A DNA stretch of 62,632 nucleotides, filler included, from Stramenopiles sp. TOSAG23-2 (Eukaryota): assembly GCA_900128395.1 (NCBI GenBank). It is 28 parts of 28 records of this genome, joined end to end, with 100 filler letters (N's around TTAATTAATTAA, not from the genome) between each part and the next. Parts side by side here need not be neighbours in the genome. Positions count along the whole stretch, not along the records: positions 17,987 to 20,132 come from LT651986.1; 27 more parts are not named here. One strand, given 5' to 3'. Positions 243 to 61,900 of this stretch are shown one piece after another. The notes below the pieces were generated by a model. The model was not told the origin of the DNA. It saw nothing but the letters and a program-made list of their open reading frames with translations, and searched no databases. Position 1 is the stretch's first letter. Every line of letters begins with the position of its first letter. Position numbers and translations under genes: made by a program.

Positions 243-1962
243 AAGATGAAAATATATATATTGCGGAAAATATGAGAAAATAACAGTGTACTGGTGAGAG
301 AGAGAGGAGAGGAGAAGTGATAGTAGATAGATGTTAATGTGTTTTTAAATTTTAAAAACAAAAATATTACACAATAATACTCGTATAAATTATAGTTTGC
401 ATGTACCCATTCTATTTCCATTTTAATTTTCCATTTTCTCGAAAAAGCAAAAGTAAAAAAAAAATACAATATTAATAAAAATAGACTGGAGTATAAAAAT
501 ACATTTACAGTAATTTGAAACACAACGTTGTGTTGAATCTACCGATCAATACAATATGGCAAGTGCACTTCAATTATTTAATTTCCAACAACTAGCTTCC
601 GAAGTGGCCGCACCGTGTAATATTTTATATAATTTGATTTACTACAATTTCCCCACTTATATTTCTCACTTTCACTAAAAAAATTTCGTTTTGAATTGAA
701 ATTTTTATATGCACCTGGTATGTAATGACACAATTCGTCAGCAAGGAAAAATCTGGCTGTATTGTGTCGAAGAGAAAGAGATCTCGAACAATGATATTGA
801 TGAGTTTCTTTGGAATTTAGAACTTTGTTCTTGTGTTCAAATTTTAAGGATTGCGGCCATAACGAAGGGGGGGGGGGGGGGAGGGGCAGGGCCGAATTTA
901 ATTGCCCCCATGTATATTAATTTAGCAGATCGCGTTTATCATGTAACACAACTAGAAAATAGACGTAGCAAGCCTGGAAAACCAACAGCATTAAAACAAC
1001 GAATCATTAAATATGGTGCTCATCATGTTTTGTATTATGGATGGTATTATCCATTACAGATGTTGTATTGGGTTGTTGACTTGCCCTAACAAATGTCGCC
1101 ATTCATTTTGAGATACAATACCATTCAATTTGGATGGAACAGCTTTTGCACTGTAATGAAAGCGTGGGGCAGAAAGTAAACGTCGTTTGCTTGTTAAAAC
1201 CACACCATTTTCTGACGTAGGATACAGTCTTTTTGTGTGTAAAACTCAATTTTACCAAAAATCCAAAAGCGGAAATCCCTATATTACAGAAATATTATTA
1301 ATCTAAAAAAAGGCTGGAAAATAACCACTGTGGTGGCCACCAAAACCAACAAGCCTATGCTATCTACATACTAAAACCCCAGATCGTTGGCAGGACTATA
1401 CCTGAAGAAAAGTACTATTAAGGTTTTTGTATGGTTTGCCTATTTCTTGCTAGGAAAGTGATAACTATAAAATATATTGAGTATCGATATGGAAAATTTA
1501 CACAAAAGAAAAAAGTGCAAAAAAGTAAAATAAAAGAACGATAAATTTATACGAAGCGTAATAAAATTTGTATAATATACAAATTATTTCAATTAGTACG
1601 AGAGATGTGCCATTAGGAAGTCTTTGTGGTTCTATATTTATAACTCTAGAATAACATTAACACTGACATTTCTATCTATAGGGTTGTTGGTATTAATATT
1701 GTAATAAAATGAAATTTTTGTTGCTAGTCCTGTAAAGAAAACTTGTAATAAAATTTTACTCTTCTCCTTTCCTAATACATACCCAAAATTTGCCTGGTGA
1801 TTTTCATTTTCCCTATCAAATGACACATAATTTATACTTGAAAGGGGAATTATATTCGCTTACTAATGATAGTTACAATGCTATTTTGCTACTAATGGAC
1901 GAAGCAGATATAAATAGATAGGGGTATTGTAGTTGGTAGTATATAAATATATATTATATTAA

Positions 1963-2148
1963 TTATTCTGTGTATATCCTCATCCATTCCACTTGTTGAT
2001 ACCCGTTTGATCCATCTCTTTTATATTGTTGTATAGCTTTTAATTGTGATCTCATATTATCACTAAGTTGATTATTATTTAGGTATAACCATTTTAATGT
2101 ATTGTTTGTTTTTAATACATCAATAATACTTTGTATTCCACTATTATC
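1963..2148 (-). CDS. C-terminal fragment of an RI-like leucine-rich-repeat protein (5' truncated)
   Basis: Manual translation: DNSGIQSIIDVLKTNNTLKWLYLNNNQLSDNMRSQLKAIQQYKRDGSNGYQQVEWMRIYTE*. Contains the LxxNxTLxxLxLxxNxL RI-type repeat; paralog at 17987-18163. Confidence 0.8.
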   Translation of the reverse strand, partial: DNSGIQSIIDVLKTNNTLKWLYLNNNQLSDNMRSQLKAIQQYKRDGSNGYQQVEWMRIYTE

Positions 2149-2149
2149 A

Positions 2150-9451: not shown

Positions 9452-11145
9452 TTAACCAAGTTTTCCACCTTTTGAACGTATAAGATCAATGATCTTTTGT
9501 TTAATTGGACTTTTATTATATTCTGCCAAGTTCAGGGGAGTTTCTCCCGCCCCGTACCTGGTCTTGGTCTTCTTATTAATGCTATTAAGAGACATAACAC
9601 TACTACGACTACGACGACGACGACTATTAGTTAATAACAACTTAATCAACTTAGTATCCTTTCTGTTAAACTGTGCTGCCACATGTAATACATTATATCC
9701 ACATTTACTATCTGCAATATTAGGATCAGCTTCACCTTGTTCAATCAAATATTTAACTATTTGGAAATGTTCGTATCTTGCAGCTGCCATTAAAGGTGTA
9801 CGATCATCACCATCACTATTAGGATCAGCTTCACCTTGTTCAATCAAATATTTAACTATTTGGAAATGTTCGTGTCTTGCAGCCATCATTAAAGGTGTCC
9901 ATCCATCACCACCACCAATATCTTTACCTTCTTGATTCACGTATTCTTTCACTGCCATATTATTATTATTATTACCATTACGCCCTTTAATCAATAATTT
10001 CACATCCCCAAAACGTCCTTTTTCACATGCACATACTATTGGTGTACCTTTTGGATATACTTCTTTGTATAAAGTGAGCAATGTTTTAGCATCACTAACT
10101 CTATCGAATTTTGCACTTTGTTCTAATTCTGCACGTAGTTCTTCTTTTGCACGTTGTGTGTGTGTTTTTCCACCTTTTGAACTTATAAGATCAATGATCT
10201 TATGTGGATCATCCATATTATAATTATTCTCTAATTGGTACATCATTTTTGAGACTAACGAAACATATGCCATGTCCAGGGGAGTGTTTCCCCCGGACTC
10301 CTTCTTATTAATACTCTCAAGAGACATATTAGTTAATAAGAATTCAATCAACTCAGTATCCGTTCTGTTACTAGCTGCTACCCAATGTAATGCATTATAT
10401 CCACCACTATTTGCAATATTAGGATCAGCTTCACCTTGTTCAATCAAATATTTAACTATTTGGAAATGTTCTTCTCCTGCAGCTGCTATTAAAGGTGTAC
10501 GTTCATTACCATAACTATTTTTACCTTCTTGATTCACGTATTCTTTCAATGTCATATTATTATTACTACCATTCACATCATTATACCCTGTAATCAATAA
10601 TTTCACATCCTCAAAACGTCCTTTTTCACATGCACATACTATTGGCGTACCGCGTGGAAATTCTTTGTCATATTTATTCCTTAATTCATTACTTGCCAGT
10701 AATTCTTGTTGGTTCTTTATTTGGCTAAATTTATACTTTGATGAACCTAAAGATGTTTTTGTTAATTCAGAAATATCTAAAGTATCGAATACTGCAGTAA
10801 AGCTTTTTGCTGGTGGCTTATTCATGCTTTTTTGGGAATTTAAATTGTTTTGTTTTTTAGACGCAGGTTTCTCCTCTAGTGATGATTTTTTATTCGAATC
10901 TAGTGTAGTCTGCTTCTTCACGAAGAAGCGTCGAGCAAGCTTGAATAGTGTAGTCTTTATAATTGGTTTAGGTTTTTCTTTAATAACATTATTATCATCT
11001 ATTCTGGAGGGTACATTGTCCTTGGTTAAAACCTTACCATCCGTTTCTATATCCCCTGAATATGAATAGTCATCTGTACGATCTCTTATTGGCACAACAA
11101 GTTCACGCCCTTCATCCTGCTTCTTCAAACTTTCATCATCTTTAA
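9452..11145 (-). CDS. Ankyrin-repeat protein with two duplicated ankyrin modules (5' truncated)
   Basis: TPLxxAAxxEHFQIVKYLIEQGEADPN occurs three times and PxGTPIVCACEKGRFxDVKLLI twice. Same family as the genes at 22479-24624. Confidence 0.92.
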
Positions 11146-17986: not shown

Positions 17987-18163
17987 GGAATACAAAGTAT
18001 TGGTGATGGATTAAAAACAAACAATACATTAACGACATTGTCCCTATATAATAATCAACTTAGTTCTAATATGAAATCACAATTAAAAGCTATAAGACAA
18101 TATAAAAGAGATGGATCAAACGGGTATCAACAAGTGAAAGGGATGAATATATACACATGGTAA
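17987..18163 (+). CDS. C-terminal fragment of an RI-like LRR protein (paralog of 1963-2148)
   Basis: GIQSIGDGLKTNNTLTTLSLYNNQLSSNMKSQLKAIRQYKRDGSNGYQQVKGMNIYTW*; the 3' UTR is also shared with the paralog. Confidence 0.8.
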   Translation, partial: GIQSIGDGLKTNNTLTTLSLYNNQLSSNMKSQLKAIRQYKRDGSNGYQQVKGMNIYTW

Positions 18164-18463
18164 TAATTAATATATATATATTTATATACTACCAACTACA
18201 ATATCCCTATATATACTTCTTCTTCTAATATATAAAAACAATTCTTCATTTAAAAATAATTATAATATATATTTATAATCATTTGTATATAGATTGAGAT
18301 AGAAGTGATATATTTTTAAACAAACAACATCAATTCCAATATCACGTGATCATCATCAATCTATATATACACAACAATTCTATTTTCAAAAGTATATACC
18401 TATTGATATATCATTTTATTTCTTGTTTTTTTTTTCAGATTTCATCACCCACAACATTATAAC

Positions 18464-19207
18464 ATGCCATATACTAGAAAAAAACCATTGCCGCAAATCT
18501 GTATTAAAATTACAAAAGATATTGAACAAGCATTTATTATTGTACAAGAAAATGCGGAGAGAAAAAATGAATATAATAAATATTTTGAAATGTTAGAACG
18601 TGATGATAAAGAAACCTTGAAATATGCACCTGTTGGTAAAAATAAAATCAAAGCAAATAAAAATTTATTACCATTGAAGTTTGTCTATCCATTGTTTACA
18701 TATGTAGAATTAATCAAAGAGAAACAATTAATTGACCATGAATTATACGATAAAAATTTAAAAGATATTGTCGCTGGAAGTGATATACACATACCAGAAA
18801 AAAATATATATATGCAAAATCCAGACCAAGACAAAAGGAAACAGGCATTATATGATAGGGCAGATCAACGTACATATAATAAAATGATTAAAAATGTGGA
18901 ATACAATATGATCAAACGACAAAAACGCGCAGAAGAAATGAATGGCCCTACATTGAAAAATGCATTACTACCACTTCATATGATGTTAGGACTCGCAGCT
19001 GGATTTATATTAGGATATATTGCAGGTGGTGCGATGAATTATAGTGAATCAAATAAAATGGTTGCTGGTTTAATCAGTATGGTATTGACATTTGCATTGG
19101 AAATATTTATATTTTTATTTAATGCATGTAAATCAGAAGTATATTCAAAAGATATTAAACGAAAAAAACGACGTGTTGTTGTCAATCAAAGTAAAAAAAA
19201 AGATTAG
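18464..19207 (+). CDS. Probable V-ATPase assembly factor, Vma12/TMEM199 family
   Basis: RADQRTYNKMIKNV precedes two C-terminal TM helices ending GLISMVLTFALEIFIF, the Vma12 layout. Confidence 0.65.
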   Translation: MPYTRKKPLPQICIKITKDIEQAFIIVQENAERKNEYNKYFEMLERDDKETLKYAPVGKNKIKANKNLLPLKFVYPLFTYVELIKEKQLIDHELYDKNLKDIVAGSDIHIPEKNIYMQNPDQDKRKQALYDRADQRTYNKMIKNVEYNMIKRQKRAEEMNGPTLKNALLPLHMMLGLAAGFILGYIAGGAMNYSESNKMVAGLISMVLTFALEIFIFLFNACKSEVYSKDIKRKKRRVVVNQSKKKD

Positions 19208-19517
19208 ATAGAGAAGAGGTAAAAAATATTTTTCCCAAAAATATTTATATTACCCAGTATAATTTAGTTTTACACTGCACATCTCATATATAATTATATT
19301 TGGTATATAATATATTATATATACGTATAAAAAAAATACACTAAATTTTGTATTTGAATAATAATTTTAAATATTATTTATTTTTTTACAAAAACGATTT
19401 TTACGGTTCGTACATAAGATGTATTTATCTCTCCTTACACACACCACTCTCTCTTTTCTTGTAACACAAAATTCTCCAATCACGTACATATATAATATGG
19501 TTGTAATGTTACCAAAC

Positions 19518-51341: not shown

Positions 51342-51601
51342 TATCCTTACTTACTGAAGATAATCATAAAACAATAACAACGACAACAACAACGATGACA
51401 ACAACAACAACAACAACAACAATCAGAGCATCTGAAGGAACACCATTTGAAGATTTACCTGGTATATTACAAATATGTATTGGTACTGCTACGAAACCAG
51501 NNNNNNNNNNNNNNNNNNNNNNNNNNNNNNNNNNNNNNNNNNNNTTAATTAATTAANNNNNNNNNNNNNNNNNNNNNNNNNNNNNNNNNNNNNNNNNNNN
51601 C

Positions 51602-53728
51602 TACTTTGGCCATTACATTGCACCACGAATCACAATGAAAGTTATTTGTACTGATGATACAAGAAATACCACTACGGTTAAATTTAGTAAAAATCCTACC
51701 TATAAGAATGATGTTAAATACAATGTCACGGTAAAAGGTGCAGAGACTAAAGTTTTAACCAACAACGTGCTTGCGTATAAAATTGAATCTCCATCATGGC
51801 TCTATGCTAACCGAAACACCAAATTTTTCACCCCATCAAAGCTAACATTTGGGTTTCAGCACGAAGAAACGTTAGTTCCTGGGTATACGTTAAAACTAGG
51901 CAACGGTATATTTAAGGCGGAGACCAGCGTCAACTTTAAATGCTTAGCATGGACCACACCTGCAGTCGAATATGAAGGTTTGCAACAAACAGACGTAGAA
52001 TGTACGTGTTCTAACTCACGAGTCTCAAGCATGCAATCGAAAATCAATCGTGAAAAAGTGTGTGCATCAGCCCCAGTAACCCGAGTAATTGGCGCGACGA
52101 TCACCGATTTACAAAAGCTCATTGTATTGCCAAAGGAGATCGATGTTAATGTTGCTGCAAATCAGCTCGTGACTGGGCCTGGCATCGCATATGATACAAA
52201 AGTTATTTCCATTTCCAGTGACAGGAAGCAAATCACAATCAGTAAAATGGCACGTTTAACTTTCAATGGCAATGTGGATATATCGTTTTGGAAACCTGTT
52301 GTAGAGGTAGGCGATAAAGATTATAATACGTTTTGTGCTGGAAATGGCAATACCGTGGATGGTGAATGCCTTTGCTGCCCTCTGCGAGGTAGGTTTCCAC
52401 GCGCATGTGAAGTTGCTGGAAATAATATCGGGGCAGAAGACATATGTACGAATGATTATTACACAATACCGAAAGCCAACATACTAAATGATGGCACGAA
52501 TAACATTAAAATTGCAAATCACAATTTGTTAGATGGGGACAAAGTAGTTTACAGTCGAGGTTTACTAAAGTCAGGATTGGTTAATAAAGTTTCAGAGTTG
52601 ACCGAAACAAAAACATACACTGTCGTTCGAGTCGACAACGACAATATCCGACTAACACTAGTATCATTAGACTCTACTAATAATAATGCTGTCGTGACGA
52701 CTGCTGTTACTTTACCAACAGATACTAAAAAAAATGGCAACGACGAACAAACATTGACGGCGGTAGCAAAATTGTCTGCCCTCATCAGTTGTAGGAAAAT
52801 AGAAGTTAACACTGCAGGTAACCCCGATAAAATCATATATGTAGACGGTTTAAAACGCGTACCACATGCATGTATGTGCGGAGACACAGAAATCGACACT
52901 GGAAGCACGTGTCTACATGAACGGTTCTCCTCAAAAGAGCTACCGGTCTGTCCTGGCCAGCAAGGCGAGACGAATGACGTTTTTTGTGCATGTTGTAATG
53001 CCGCAGGTACATGCGAACGTGCAGAAGTCGGTGAAACTTGCCACAACGGAAAGGCAGAATTCCCAGCTTCCTGCGCGGCAAGGGATGGAGGAAGTGCTGT
53101 GGTGAAAATGTGCGATTGTGGAAATCAAAAAAATATTGCACCCGGCCAAATATGCAACGACGAGAACGCCAAGGATGAATACACTTTTCCTATTTGCGAA
53201 TTAGATAATGGATATAGCCCCAATATATATAATGGATATATCGAAAAGTGCTCCTGCTGCAGTACAGACTTGAATGATTGTAAAATAACGTCAGCCACGG
53301 ATACATGTCTCACGACACAAACGACTGCTACGGTAGCACCGTTAGCCGCTTGCGCCATCAGCGACGGCGCTGCCGTTACGCGTGTAGTATGCGTGTGCGG
53401 GTCAACCTATCTACTTCCTGGTGAAGTTTGTTACGAGTCGATGAAATTGGACAAATGCACGGGTTCCGGCCTCGCAGTTTCCTCTACATGCGCTTGTTGT
53501 AATGAAAACGGCGACGTTTGCACGCCCGCTTCAACGGGGGACACCTGCACGAGTCAAGGAGCCGTAGCACGGATTGATACATGTGTAGGTGGTAACACGT
53601 TAGAACCCACGGAAGTCACTTGCAACTGTGGCGATATTCAGGCGCAGCCAAATCAGGTCTGCGCTCACCATATAGAGGCAAATCTGAAATTATCAATATG
53701 CAGCGATGATGGAAACGTTGTTGATCAG
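51602..53728 (+). CDS. Large Cys-rich extracellular/surface protein (both ends truncated)
   Basis: Open frame with repeated C-x-C/CC units of about 35 aa; visibly higher GC than most contigs. Confidence 0.75.
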
Positions 53729-54949: not shown

Positions 54950-55261
54950 CTACGACAAGCGCGCAAGTGCTTCGATAGAGTTTGTGTCTCCTTGTTCTGC
55001 TGCTTTTGTATACCATTCAACTGCTTTTTTGAGATCCTTTGTAACGCCTTTACCATCTTCATACATTGTACCAAGATTACATTGACCACGTGCATGTCCT
55101 TGTTCTGCTGCTTTTTTATACCATTCAACCGCTTTTTTGTCATCCTTTGTAACGCCATCACCATTTTCATACATATAACCAAGACTAGATTGACTACATG
55201 CATGTCCTTGTTCTGCTGATTTTGTATACCATTCAACTGCTTTTTTGTAATCCTTTTGTAG
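54950..55261 (-). CDS. Sel1-repeat protein C-terminus (upstream structure unresolved)
   Basis: KDxKKAVEWYxKxAEQG occurs three times, with LGxMYExGxGV; 108-bp DNA repeats. Confidence 0.8.
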   Translation of the reverse strand, partial: LQKDYKKAVEWYTKSAEQGHACSQSSLGYMYENGDGVTKDDKKAVEWYKKAAEQGHARGQCNLGTMYEDGKGVTKDLKKAVEWYTKAAEQGDTNSIEALARLS

Positions 55262-56393
55262 GGTTGAGTATGGTGTTCAAGTATGAATGTACATAGATAA
55301 TGTATTACAATTAGTATGGAACACGCCGTCAAGATTTTCGTGAGTCAAATCTGACACGTCTATAAGAACGGGAACCTGTAAGAGAGGATCCTTTGTGGCG
55401 ACAAAGGAAGCGAGAATTGCTGCATCGCCCGCGAGCTCGCGCGCGCCTTTTTCGCAAAGAAAATTGCCCAGGTGGGTTTGCAAGTCGTCGTACACTTCCA
55501 AGCCTTCTTCCTCAGCAATATTAAACATGGACCTTTACGTCAACCTTTAGGTTTTGCAACACTTTTCGTACCACTTAAAATACAATATTTTATTAAGTTG
55601 TTATGTTGCTTGCAGTATGAATATTTCGTAACGCTGTTCGTAACACTTAAAATACAATATTAGCCCAATAACTTTATGAAACGATGCAAAAAAATGCTAC
55701 TTTGAATCGCTTGTGTGTTCTTATCGCAATGGAATATCTAAAATGCCGCTGTTGTTTTGTTGAAACCAGCAGCAAGAATCCTTCGTATGTATATCCTACA
55801 CCTCTGCGTCGGTTTTTTTCACGAAAATTTTTTTTCACCTCTCTGATATTTTTCAACAGTTGGCAAAAAAACAATAGCAAATGGAAATGATTCAACAGAT
55901 GTTGCAACGATGATAAATAAATGTGCAGGTATCTAATAAATGTGTTTTGTGGTTTNNNNNNNNNNNNNNNNNNNNNNNNNNNNNNNNNNNNNNNNNNNNT
56001 TAATTAATTAANNNNNNNNNNNNNNNNNNNNNNNNNNNNNNNNNNNNNNNNNNNNCTTAGACGCCTCTCTATAAATGTGCAAATGGAATATAAAGCAAAT
56101 ACTACCTACAGTAGAGCAAATGTGCAAATCACCACCCTTTTTTGCAACCTTTGTGCCTTTGGCTTTCGAATTCGATCATCATTTACATTATAAAAATTAT
56201 ATATTATATCCGTCCTTACACGTTGATACAAGTTGTATTGACCTGTTTTTAGTGGAAATAAAAAGGAATCATTAACTAATAAAGTCAATTTATCTAATTT
56301 ACATAAATTATACATCATACTAATATATATATATACCAAATTGCATGGTATATATGTACCTATTTATAAGTACAATAAGAGGTTGAATCAGAG

Positions 56394-60508: not shown

Positions 60509-61900
60509 TCACTTCCGAAAGAAATTACATCACCATTATGTCTTTTACTTGCAATTGACTGTGCACACTCAGCGTGGGGAGTAATTCAACCAAATACTCC
60601 ATCCAGACGGCATAAACAATTAGTAATAGATACTATCGTTGATTTTGTATGTGTTGCATTGCCCCTTTGTTTGATGCGATTCGCATATCAAGTACCAATA
60701 ACCATTTCTGAGATGATTAGTGTTACTCTGATGCCAACCTTTTTCATGTTGGCAAAATTGGATGATATATTTGAAGAAATAGTACGACGTCGAACCTTCA
60801 ATTCAGTTTTAAAAGAACAGACACGAAAATCATTTCTTCAAAAAAGGAGAAGGGAAAGTTTATTTCAACAGATTACATATCTTGAAATAGCAGAAAAACA
60901 AGAAAACAATGTACCCCGTATTATTAAAATTGCTGTTAGCATTTGCAAAGGTTTATTTGCACTTTTCTTTTTCATTGTTGGCATGATACATCTAATATCA
61001 TATCCTACAAAATGCGATGAAACAACTTGGGTTAAAGGCTGTGTAAATAAAGTTCCATTTTGTCAAAGTTTACTTACGCCGACGTGCAATTGTATGTCTC
61101 TACGGATTGAAAATGATTATACGCTAAATATGTTACCAAATAGTGTAGTAGACGAAATGACTGGGTTGAGAACAGTGTATATACGTAATTGCAATTTGAC
61201 GAAATTACCTTCGGGAATGGAACAGTTAACAGAAATGGTAAAATTTGAAGTTCGGTTTACTCTTTTGGATTCGTTTGATGTGAATATATTAAAGTGGAAC
61301 AAATTAAATAAATTGCATTTAATGCATAATAATATTACAGTTTATAATGAAGTTGCAATATGGCATCATCCTGGTCTTGAGGCTCTTAATTTAGGTCATA
61401 ATGATATAAAAATGCCTGCAAATGGTATTGATTTGCCTTCGTTAGATTATCTTTACCTTAGCGACAATAATCTTGATTTTACAACTCCAATCGGAGTAGA
61501 TAATATACCACACCTTACTTTTTTATATTTAAATGGCAATCGTTTGGTAACTTTTCCAGCAGAGTCGTTAAAAGATAATCTTGTGAAATTAGGCATTAGC
61601 CGTTGCTCGTTGAAGTCTCTGCCTTCGTATTTATCCAAGTTTAAAGCGTTGCGTTATTTAGATGCCAGGGATAATAATATCACTCATGTAGAAAATGATT
61701 TCAAATTATTGATGGAGAAAAACTCGATGGAAACATATTTTTCTGGAAATCATGTTTGTAACGGAGATAAATCGTTAGATTGTGAACCACTTTGTTCAAA
61801 AACTTGTTGGAGTAAACGAGTTTCAAATGATGGGATTTGTGATTATTCTTGTAACTCTGAAGCTTGTAAATTTGATGGCGGAGATTGTACCAATTCGTAA
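60509..61900 (+). CDS. Multipass TM + LRR + C-terminal LNR (Notch/Lin-12) repeat receptor-like protein (5' truncated)
   Basis: TM helices, a Cys cap, about 8 LxxLxLxxN repeats, then CEPLCSKTCWSKRVSNDGICDYSCNSEACKFDGGDC (LNR). Confidence 0.85.
   Translation, partial: SLPKEITSPLCLLLAIDCAHSAWGVIQPNTPSRRHKQLVIDTIVDFVCVALPLCLMRFAYQVPITISEMISVTLMPTFFMLAKLDDIFEEIVRRRTFNSVLKEQTRKSFLQKRRRESLFQQITYLEIAEKQENNVPRIIKIAVSICKGLFALFFFIVGMIHLISYPTKCDETTWVKGCVNKVPFCQSLLTPTCNCMSLRIENDYTLNMLPNSVVDEMTGLRTVYIRNCNLTKLPSGMEQLTEMVKFEVRFTLLDSFDVNILKWNKLNKLHLMHNNITVYNEVAIWHHPGLEALNLGHNDIKMPANGIDLPSLDYLYLSDNNLDFTTPIGVDNIPHLTFLYLNGNRLVTFPAESLKDNLVKLGISRCSLKSLPSYLSKFKALRYLDARDNNITHVENDFKLLMEKNSMETYFSGNHVCNGDKSLDCEPLCSKTCWSKRVSNDGICDYSCNSEACKFDGGDCTNS

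What the first reader, a model, noticed from the sequence alone, without database searches (positions are those of the whole stretch)
17987..18163. RI-type LRR paralogs differing almost only at non-synonymous sites
Over 58 codons aligned to 1963-2139 (minus strand) I count 13 non-synonymous codon differences and 1 synonymous. They cluster at the exposed x positions of the beta-strands (LKWLYLNNN vs LTTLSLYNN; VEWMRIYTE vs VKGMNIYTW), while the framework and 3' UTR are conserved. Both contigs break inside the LRR array, as expected for a large family. This is the signature of diversifying selection seen in NLR/VLR-type receptors.
Basis: partly seen in the sequence, partly recalled or inferred. 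Interest (0 to 1): 0.72.

Follow-up and report, generated by a model that had tools for sequence, protein, structure and literature searches.

The report
Hypervariable LRR receptor-like gene family
The two fragments are the tail ends of two members of a very large gene family in an uncultured marine protist, whose leucine-rich repeats keep an almost invariant scaffold while a few binding-surface residues vary freely, as in immune receptor repertoires.

Summary
The two ends differ at 14 of 58 codons, 13 of them non-synonymous and 1 synonymous. A conserved block of about 52 nt follows the stop codon.

The pair alone does not show selection: Nei-Gojobori pN/pS is 0.121/0.111, Fisher P = 0.68. The family does.
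- The C-terminal cap retrieved 112 protein clusters and 62 DNA loci, 34 of them from one deposited assembly.
- In 36 caps and 68 internal 26-codon repeats, framework codons are nearly invariant even at synonymous sites. Five positions per repeat (LxxLxLxx) and about seven cap positions carry 3-16 residue types.
- Counting changes on a tree gives 11 of 12 x sites an excess of replacements at P < 1e-3, and 0 of 44 framework sites.
- In three TIR-NTPase-LRR paralogs, dS is 0.44-0.51 in the N-terminal part but 0.03-0.08 in the LRR framework. The arrays therefore evolve in concert.
- N-terminal partners include TIR, caspase, kinase, helicase-like NTPase, ankyrin and XK-related domains.

Best reading: a cytoplasmic non-self-sensor repertoire that combines concerted evolution with diversifying selection. 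It is the LRR counterpart of the fungal "high internal conservation" NLR repeats. I rate it a new variant of a known kind.

The parts
17987..18160 (+). 3' end of LRR gene copy A (contig 9): the last 29-residue repeat plus the C-terminal cap, 58 codons. The contig starts inside the array.
   Evidence: Translation. Matches 112 family proteins at 59-93% identity. Cap alignment.
18161..18163 (+). Stop codon TAA of copy A, followed by a second TAA.
18164..18215 (+). Family-specific conserved block after the stop (putative 3' UTR). It contains a 17-nt motif at 18187-18203.
   Evidence: Conserved between the two copies. The motif is present, with <=3 mismatches, after 42 of 59 caps. In the window, exact copies occur only at the two LRR ends. 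No Rfam match and no significant fold, z = 0.12.
1966..2149 (-). 3' end of LRR gene copy B (contig 1): the last repeat plus the cap, 61 codons. The contig ends inside the array.
   Evidence: Translation. tblastn gives 79% identity to copy A.
1963..1965 (-). Stop codon TAA of copy B.
1911..1962 (-). The same conserved post-stop block in copy B, with the 17-nt motif at 1925-1941.
   Evidence: A further ~75 nt (to about 1840) is shared with loci L010 and L015 only.

Best explanation
The two fragments are the C-terminal ends of two paralogs of a lineage-specific family with a very high copy number. The family encodes RNI-like LRR proteins in an uncultured, AT-rich marine protist, probably a stramenopile.

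Each protein carries 3 to about 11 nearly identical 26-residue repeats, a 29-residue last repeat and a conserved cap. A family-specific motif follows the stop codon.

The arrays evolve in concert. Unequal crossing-over or gene conversion within and between loci keeps the scaffold uniform, down to synonymous sites and the post-stop block. At the same time, five concave-face positions per repeat (x in LxxLxLxx) and about seven cap positions are driven apart by positive diversifying selection.

The arrays are combined with different N-terminal signalling or death domains: TIR, caspase-like, kinase, helicase-like P-loop NTPase, ankyrin and XK-related. The most likely function is therefore a repertoire of cytoplasmic ligand sensors for non-self recognition, such as antiviral or antibacterial immunity or allorecognition.

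Shown here: family size, the site pattern, omega > 1 at the x sites, concerted evolution, and the domain combinations. Inferred: ligand binding by the x residues, a cytoplasmic location, and an immune role.
For: Family size
- 112 of 119 candidates passed E <= 1e-3.
- 62 loci were confirmed among 195 pattern matches. By hand count of the table, 34 of them share one assembly prefix.
- Summed k-mer depth in metagenome run X2 is 39,118 in the framework bin, about 5,800 in a cap bin and 3,081 in the motif bin, against 18-19 in the unique flank. The tool warns that this is not a copy number.

Site pattern
- In 36 caps, framework codons are near-invariant at synonymous sites (for example TTA 36/36, CTA 36/36, GGA 35/35). 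The x sites carry 3-16 residue types.
- The 68 internal units show the same pattern.
- In those units, the x codons keep their third base: G 62/68, A 55/68, C 57/68, T 66/68, T 67/68. Positions 1-2 vary.

Rates
- Caps: framework pS 0.043, x-codon pN 0.449.
- Units: framework pS 0.101, x-codon pN 0.479.
- Tree counting: 11 of 12 x sites at P < 1e-3, with omega 3.8-11.5 against the global synonymous rate. None of 44 framework codons reaches that level.

Concerted evolution
- In L001, L024 and L029, dS is 0.44-0.51 over 836-846 TIR+NTPase codons and 0.027-0.080 in the LRR framework of the same pairs.
- Units from one locus are no more alike than units from different loci: framework p-distance 0.057 against 0.064.
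- Repeat number differs among these paralogs.

Other support
- The x residues are enriched in Y (3.6x), N, W and H, and depleted in A, P, L, V and I.
- In the AlphaFold2 model the LRR part has block pLDDT of about 78-96, and the strands fall on x-L-x.
- Domain partners.
- RNA-library contigs hold framework sequence: run X15 (metatranscriptome) and run X16 (oligo-dT).
Against: - The window pair alone shows no dN/dS excess.
- Measured against the slower N-terminal clock (dS about 0.47), x-site dN of 0.56-1.04 gives omega of only about 1.2-2.2. The size of the excess therefore depends on accepting the local, homogenised synonymous rate.
- The counting test used a tree inferred from the same short, probably recombining alignment.
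- Retrieval was by protein words or patterns from the conserved cap, so divergent relatives are under-sampled.
- Short-read contigs through such repeats may be chimeric. Flank-defined "orthologs" turned out to be mosaic.
- In-frame stops sit at variable positions, with none at invariant framework codons in the 85 units found by nucleotide search. This could hint at raised mutation input rather than selection alone.
- The concerted-evolution contrast rests on one trio of related genes, so its three pairs are not independent.
- No functional data exist.
Confidence: 0.7

Rival explanations
1. Relaxed constraint, not positive selection. The x residues are simply unconstrained surface positions drifting at about the neutral rate. 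The scaffold, including its synonymous sites, is held uniform by gene conversion or by a nucleotide-level constraint, which makes dN/dS look high.
For: Against the N-terminal dS of 0.44-0.51, x-site dN of 0.56-1.04 is only about 1.2-2.2 times neutral. The window pair has pN/pS of about 1.
Against: - Conversion tracts that keep the TTG and CTA codons between the x codons uniform (68/68 and 62/67), and the x-codon third bases too, would also erase x differences unless diversity is favoured.
- The x-residue composition is far from drift in a 31% GC genome: Y is 3.6x enriched, while L, V, I, A and P are 0.1-0.3x.
- Even on the slow clock, omega is >= 1 at every x class.
Confidence: 0.1
2. Programmed diversification. 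The invariant scaffold and the post-stop motif are homology substrates for a dedicated process that generates the x-codon diversity. That process could be germline or somatic, and either cassette-copying (as in lamprey VLR or antigenic variation) or site-directed mutagenesis.
For: - Hundreds to thousands of near-identical units, judged from depth ratios.
- 63 of 64 x-blocks are distinct.
- In-frame stops lie at variable positions in otherwise long ORFs: TAA at x2 in L001, L003, L016 and L025, and TGA in L024. None occurs at invariant framework codons in 85 units.
- Contigs sharing 96-99% identical downstream flanks carry unrelated x codons, with 11-15 of 24 x position 1-2 nucleotides different.
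Against: - There is no base-specific (DGR-like) signature. Framework A, C, G and T are all invariant.
- A mutator blind to codon phase would also change the x-codon third bases, and these are largely kept.
- There is no linkage among x positions (|z| < 2), so a few shuffled cassettes cannot be the source.
- The flanks are mosaic, so the "ortholog" comparison is unsafe.
- No read-level data were available.
Confidence: 0.07
3. A variable recognition family with a role other than immunity. Examples are prey or mate recognition, or substrate adaptors for signalling enzymes. In this reading the diversity reflects functional specialisation of many paralogs.
For: Some partners are not classic immune domains: ankyrin, XK-related, SidE-type phosphodiesterase and phosphoglucomutase. 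No functional data exist.
Against: TIR, caspase-like, kinase and NTPase partners, together with continuous turnover at the binding face, are the hallmarks of non-self sensors. Stable specialisation would not keep the scaffolds homogenised across paralogs.
Confidence: 0.1
4. Artefact. The pattern arises from collapsed or chimeric short-read assemblies of a repeat, or from mixing several strains.
For: Contigs break inside arrays. Logan contigs over the repeat are only 49-319 nt long. One assembly holds two contigs with a 97% identical flank but different caps.
Against: The same scaffold and variable pattern is seen in at least 9 contig-name prefixes and in protein sets from several sources. x-blocks of 21 nt lie within a single k-mer or read. 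Long uninterrupted ORFs of up to 1,513 codons run through arrays.
Confidence: 0.03

Closest known systems
Fungal NLR repeats with high internal conservation: the Podospora NWD / HET-D / HET-E WD40 family, and ANK and TPR NLRs (PMC1805685, abstract read; PMC4986451, passages read)
   Same: Near-identical repeats exchanged within and between loci (concerted evolution). Variable repeat number. A handful of surface positions per repeat under positive diversifying selection. Combinatorial N-terminal effector domains.
   Different: [quoted passage not shown]
- The NTPase, where present, hits helicase-type Pfam models rather than NACHT or NB-ARC. Many members show no NTPase at all.
- The copy number appears far higher.
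- A conserved cap and a post-stop motif travel with the array.
- The host is a marine protist.
Ectocarpus LRR-ROCO and NB-ARC-TPR candidate receptors (PMC3341825, passages read)
   Same: A (probable) stramenopile host. Repetitive LRR modules. Positive selection on concave-face residues. Shuffling of modules among loci.
   Different: Ectocarpus has one 72-nt exon per 24-residue LRR, shuffled as exons. Here, 26-residue units lie in continuous ORFs. No ROC-COR GTPase was seen in the 23 distinct members scanned against Pfam.
Plant TIR-NB-LRR and animal NLR receptors
   Same: The domain order TIR - P-loop NTPase - LRR in L001, L024 and L029. Hypervariable solvent-exposed LRR residues. The LRR profile matches NOD2, NLRP1 and NLRP3 LRRs.
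   Different: No NACHT or NB-ARC hit. The repeats are far more uniform than in known NLRs. Many family members pair the LRR with caspase, kinase or ankyrin domains and have no NTPase.
Lamprey and hagfish variable lymphocyte receptors (recalled; also mentioned in PMC3341825)
   Same: An invariant LRR scaffold with hypervariable concave residues, and very many cassette-like units in the genome.
   Different: There is no evidence here of somatic assembly. There are no cysteine-rich LRRNT or LRRCT caps. The members are fused to intracellular signalling domains.
Ribonuclease inhibitor / RNI-like LRR class
   Same: Best solved-structure sequence matches: E = 3e-20 to 4e-20. Helices on the convex side in the model.
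   Different: The internal repeat is 26 residues with an N-N-I-T-D turn. By recall (Kobe and Kajava classification, not tested here) this resembles the 26-residue cysteine-containing class more than the 28/29-residue RI class.

Membership tests
RNI-like (ribonuclease-inhibitor type) LRR | Sequence or profile similarity to RI-type repeats | tested here: met
   The profile of alignment A2 hits ribonuclease inhibitor at E = 3.1e-20 and NOD2 at 9e-19. Pfam LRR_6 hits.
RNI-like (ribonuclease-inhibitor type) LRR | Repeat length of 28-29 residues (feature recalled) | tested here: not met
   Internal units are 26 residues. Only the last repeat before the cap is 29 residues.
NLR (STAND NTPase + LRR) | Central NACHT or NB-ARC NTPase | tested here: not met
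   The L029 NTPase hits ResIII (1e-12), DEAD, and only weakly AAA_16. There is no NACHT or NB-ARC hit. No PDB sequence match. Most members show no NTPase.
NLR (STAND NTPase + LRR) | C-terminal LRR sensor with an N-terminal effector domain | tested here: met
   TIR-NTPase-LRR in L029. TIR-LRR in L004. Caspase-LRR in L028.
Repeat domains with high internal conservation under concerted evolution (fungal NLR type) | Repeats >85% identical within a gene and between genes | tested here: met
   Framework nucleotide p-distance is 0.057 within loci and 0.064 between loci. Framework codons are near-invariant.
Repeat domains with high internal conservation under concerted evolution (fungal NLR type) | The repeat region is younger or more homogeneous than the rest of the gene, with repeat-number polymorphism | tested here: met
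   dS is 0.027-0.080 in the LRR framework against 0.44-0.51 in the TIR+NTPase region of the same pairs. Repeat number differs among L001, L024 and L029. This rests on one gene trio only.
Repeat domains with high internal conservation under concerted evolution (fungal NLR type) | Positive diversifying selection at a few surface positions | tested here: met
   11 of 12 x sites at P < 1e-3 by the counting method. Strands fall on x-L-x in the model. No recombination-aware model was run.
Ectocarpus-type exon-shuffled LRR-ROCO | One exon per LRR, and a ROC-COR GTPase | tested here: not met
   Arrays lie in continuous ORFs. No Roc or COR Pfam hit in the 23 distinct members scanned.
Variable lymphocyte receptor | Somatic assembly of an incomplete germline gene from flanking cassettes | not testable with these tools
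   Only Logan contigs of 49-319 nt cover the repeat. No raw reads or matched DNA and cDNA were available.
Diversity-generating retroelement target | Variation confined to template adenines | tested here: not met
   Numerous framework adenines, including synonymous ones (TTA, ACA, CTA, GTA, GGA), are invariant. No reverse transcriptase was looked for.

The most novel reading that the evidence does not exclude
The invariant scaffold and the family-specific post-stop motif are not just by-products of concerted evolution. They would be the working parts of a diversity generator. Hundreds to thousands of LRR units, some in genes carrying a stop at a variable position, would serve as donors in frequent gene-conversion-type exchange, possibly programmed or even somatic. 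That would give a free-living unicellular eukaryote an anticipatory receptor repertoire, analogous to lamprey VLRs or to antigenic-variation systems.
Probability: 0.06. Interest if true: 0.95.

Novelty: new variant of a known kind. Interest (0 to 1): 0.66.

Why it matters
Concerted evolution combined with diversifying selection on repeat sensors is documented for fungal WD40, ANK and TPR NLRs and, in another form, for brown-algal LRR exons. An LRR version was not found in my literature searches. By an LRR version I mean one with designer-like uniform repeats, a travelling cap and post-stop motif, and TIR, caspase, kinase or NTPase partners in an abundant uncultured marine protist. These were keyword searches of open-access text only.

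If the reading holds, three things follow.
- Tiny ocean protists would carry large, fast-turning-over innate sensor repertoires.
- There would be a third independent case of the same evolutionary solution, this time built on LRRs.
- There would be a natural library of LRR binders on one fixed scaffold.

It would also make testable whether TIR or caspase death signalling coupled to variable sensors operates in unicellular marine eukaryotes facing viruses.

Tried and rejected
- Own-genome search: no genome is held for this window.
- DGR-like adenine mutagenesis: rejected, because framework adenines are invariant.
- Diversity from shuffling a few cassettes: rejected. 63 of 64 x-blocks are distinct and no x-x linkage exceeds |z| = 2. 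The linkage and repeated blocks seen came from counting the same genes twice, once as proteins and once as loci.
- Post-stop motif as a structured RNA or a known RNA family: the only Rfam hit is a chance-level one elsewhere, and the fold z-score is 0.12.
- Post-stop motif as a general terminator: within the 62.6-kb window, exact copies occur only at the two LRR ends.
- Giant-virus or phage origin: 0 confirmed relatives among 50 pattern matches in viral contigs.
- Ortholog test by shared downstream flank: inconclusive. The flanks are mosaic (W01, L010 and L015 share only about 75 nt further), and one assembly holds two contigs with the same flank.
- Read-level test for repeat shuffling: all four runs are kept as Logan contigs. 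These are too short over the repeat to bridge the x codons to the unique flank, so nothing can be said.
- PADLOC: only a weak PDC-S66 hit upstream of the TIR in L029, and a weak caspase hit.
- ESM Atlas: only generic LRR clusters from rotifers, Mucoromycota and ciliates.
- PDB sequence search of the L029 NTPase region: no match.
- Representative-library search: 512 hits at E <= 1e-3 and 65 at <= 1e-10, but clustering at 50% identity collapses the family. It shows only that cap-bearing relatives are few and close, and that the rest are generic LRRs.
- Organism identity: the best named dyskerin hits are mostly stramenopiles at 78-82% identity. This is weak evidence, and I did not pursue it further.

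Full report
**What the window is.**
The 62,632-base window is a chain of 28 short contigs of 2,125-2,149 bp, with GC of 27-43.5%. They are joined by N...TTAATTAATTAA...N spacers. Pfam hits on its long ORFs include mitochondrial-type RNA polymerase, Pex14, dyskerin, SLBP, arginine kinase, BTB, Sel1 and actin, which show a eukaryote. No whole genome is held for it. The closest named dyskerin relatives are mostly stramenopiles at 78-82% identity. Unnamed marine-metagenome proteins reach 92-99%. I therefore treat the host as an uncultured marine protist, probably a stramenopile, on weak evidence.

**The observation.**
Contig 9 starts at 17987 inside an LRR, and contig 1 ends at 2149 inside an LRR. 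The two reading frames differ at 14 of 58 codons, 13 non-synonymous and 1 synonymous, with 23 of 177 nt different. About 52 nt after the stop are conserved, and similarity then stops.

As a test of selection, the pair is not significant.
- Synonymous sites are only 18.9% of sites, so P(<=1 synonymous of 14) = 0.23.
- Nei-Gojobori gives pS 0.111 and pN 0.121, Fisher P = 0.68.

What is non-random is where the differences fall. Of the 12 replacements in the first 56 codons, 9 lie on the 12 positions that are hypervariable family-wide (P = 5e-6).

**Family size.**
- Only two copies lie in the window.
- The 61-residue end retrieved 112 protein clusters among 119 candidates, at 59-93% identity. They come from ENA, JGI, GOS, MERC, EukProt and NCBI.
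- A scan of metagenome contigs gave 62 confirmed loci from 195 pattern matches. By hand count of that table, 34 share one assembly prefix, 8 a second and 7 a third. The rest come from six other prefixes.
- Laying Logan contigs of a seawater metagenome (run X2) on 17987-19400 gave these summed k-mer depths: 39,118 for the scaffold bin, about 5,800 for a cap bin, 3,081 for the post-stop-motif bin, and 18-19 for the unique downstream gene. The tool warns that this is not a copy number. I read it only as an indication of hundreds of genes and thousands of units across the organisms present.
- RNA-library contigs also hold scaffold sequence: run X15 (metatranscriptome) and run X16 (oligo-dT). This is a weak sign of expression.
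- None was found in viral contigs.

**Anatomy.**
- Internal repeats are 26 residues, the last repeat is 29, and a cap follows.
- A single-sequence AlphaFold2 model of one 346-residue member is confident over the LRR part (10-residue block pLDDT about 78-96). It places each short strand on x-L-x of LxxLxLxx and adds a final strand from the cap.
- By Foldseek, the nearest solved folds are a designed LRR, internalin B, a Roco LRR, and NOD2 and NLRP.
- By sequence profile, the nearest are ribonuclease inhibitor (3e-20), NOD2 and NLRP1.
- After the stop, a 17-nt motif within an AT-rich block is present after 42 of 59 caps. In the window, exact copies occur only at the two LRR ends. It matches no Rfam family and has no significant fold.

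**N-terminal partners.**
Pfam on 27 proteins and ORFs (23 distinct genes; four proteins are the same genes as ORFs) found these:
- TIR plus a helicase-like P-loop NTPase (L029, 1,513 residues)
- TIR alone (L004)
- caspase (L028 = P0050)
- protein kinase (P0020)
- DEAD/ResIII NTPase (P0102)
- ankyrin (L039, P0021, P0079, P0098)
- XK-related (L005 = P0030)
- SidE-type phosphodiesterase (L034)
- phosphoglucomutase domain I (P0106, on a 1,092-nt contig, so possibly a gene-call fusion)
- several with LRR only.

No NACHT or NB-ARC domain was found.

**Site pattern.**
I found 58 caps in all. Of these, 16 lacked enough upstream sequence, and 6 were dropped for stops, indels or low identity (L031, L038, L040, L042, L045, L046). 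That left 36 caps aligned codon by codon.
- Scaffold codons are almost invariant, including at synonymous sites: TTA 36/36, CTA 36/36, TTG 34/35, GGA 35/35, GTG 35/35. Different Leu codons are fixed at different positions, so this is not codon bias.
- Twelve positions carry 3-16 residue types.
- The 68 internal units show the same pattern (68 of 153 regex matches).
- There the five x codons read NNG, NNA, NNC, NNT and NAT. The third base is kept in 62, 55, 57, 66 and 67 of 68 units.
- A process blind to codon phase would not spare third bases. Base-specific (DGR-like) mutagenesis is excluded because scaffold A, C, G and T are all invariant.
- The x residues are enriched in Y (3.6x), N, W and H, and depleted in A, P, L, V and I.
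- Of 64 stop-free units, 63 have distinct x-blocks, and no pair of x positions is linked (|z| < 2). An earlier signal of linkage was an artefact of duplicated entries.

**Rates.**
- Mean pairwise values for caps: scaffold pS 0.043 and pN 0.052, x-codon pN 0.449.
- Mean pairwise values for units: scaffold pS 0.101 and pN 0.054, x-codon pN 0.479.
- Counting changes by parsimony on a FastTree tree of the 36 caps, 11 of 12 x sites exceed the global synonymous rate at P < 1e-3, with omega 3.8-11.5. The twelfth reaches P = 1.7e-3. None of 44 scaffold codons reaches P < 1e-3.
- Caveats: the tree comes from the same short alignment, recombination is likely, and no likelihood model was available.

**Concerted evolution.**
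Three TIR-NTPase-LRR genes (L001, L024, L029) align along their whole length.
- In the TIR+NTPase part (836-846 codons), dS is 0.44-0.51.
- In the LRR scaffold of the same pairs, dS is 0.027-0.080.
- x-codon dN is 0.56-1.04.

The arrays are therefore 5-13 times "younger" than the genes that carry them, and they differ in repeat number. Units from one locus are no more alike than units from different loci. This is the pattern of repeats exchanged within and between loci. It also means that the naive dN/dS is inflated. On the slow clock, omega at the x sites is only about 1.2-2.2. However, exchange that homogenises the codons lying between x codons would also erase x differences unless diversity is favoured. 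The three pairs come from one gene trio and are not independent.

**Unresolved.**
- Contigs with 96-99% identical downstream flanks carry unrelated x codons: 11-15 of 24 x position 1-2 nucleotides differ, against 1-4 of 132 scaffold nucleotides. This would mean very fast turnover or array replacement. But the flanks are mosaic, and two such contigs come from one assembly. Orthology is therefore unsafe, and chimeric assembly is possible.
- In-frame stops lie at variable positions in otherwise long ORFs: TAA at x2 in L001, L003, L016 and L025, TGA at a variable Gly position in L024, and a stop at x1 in L031. L046 also has two adjacent stops, at x4 and x5, in a unit whose upstream frame is already broken. 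None occurs at invariant scaffold codons in the 85 units found by nucleotide search. The numbers are small.

**Comparison with known systems.**
- The closest mechanism is the fungal high-internal-conservation NLR repeat. In it, WD40, ANK and TPR repeats are exchanged within and between loci, and a few surface positions are under positive selection (PMC1805685, abstract; PMC4986451, passages). The latter paper states that no LRR motifs occur in fungal NLRs.
- The Ectocarpus LRR-ROCO genes share the LRR type and concave-face selection, but they shuffle one exon per 24-residue repeat (PMC3341825, passages).
- My keyword searches found no description of this family. Only open-access text was searched.

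**Verdict.**
This is a new variant of a known kind. Interest is 0.66.

Noticed in passing
window 9455-11143 (-), contig 5: This ORF begins with the same post-NTPase linker as the TIR-NTPase-LRR genes L001, L024 and L029. It continues into ankyrin repeats instead of LRRs, and those repeats include near-identical internal copies. This looks like sensor-domain swapping within the same gene superfamily.
   Followed up: partly
L001 4503-4505; L003, L016 and L025 (x2 codons); L024 4866-4868; L031 (x1 of the last repeat): Single in-frame stop codons sit at hypervariable positions of otherwise long intact ORFs: TAA at x2 in four loci, and TGA at a variable Gly position in one. None was seen at invariant scaffold codons in the 85 units found by nucleotide search.
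   Followed up: partly
window 1840-1910 (-); L010; L015: Beyond the family-wide post-stop block, copy B shares about 75 nt more with two metagenome loci, and the three then diverge at different points. The flanks are mosaic. The segment contains a short repeated word, and similar words occur on contig 2 near 2380-2450.
   Followed up: no
L011 3135-5180: One ORF contains two cap-like sequences. An internal, diverged cap is followed by further repeats and a second, canonical cap.
   Followed up: no
L026 and L043: These are divergent family members (66-74% identity) whose reading frame continues past the cap without a stop, giving C-terminal extensions.
   Followed up: no
window 51601-53728 (contig 24) and 31461-33604 (contig 15): GC is 43.5% and 38.7%, against about 27-36% for most contigs. 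Both carry 700-residue ORFs with no Pfam hit. The window may mix sources or hold compositionally odd genes.
   Followed up: no
window 60509-61897 (+), 54953-55276 (-), 34389-35816 (-): Other repeat and adaptor families are present in the window: an LRR_8 protein with a Notch/LNR domain, Sel1 repeats and a BTB protein.
   Followed up: no
P0106 (232 aa, on a 1,092-nt contig): A phosphoglucomutase domain I is followed directly by the last LRR and the cap. This is either a real fusion or a gene-call or assembly join.
   Followed up: no
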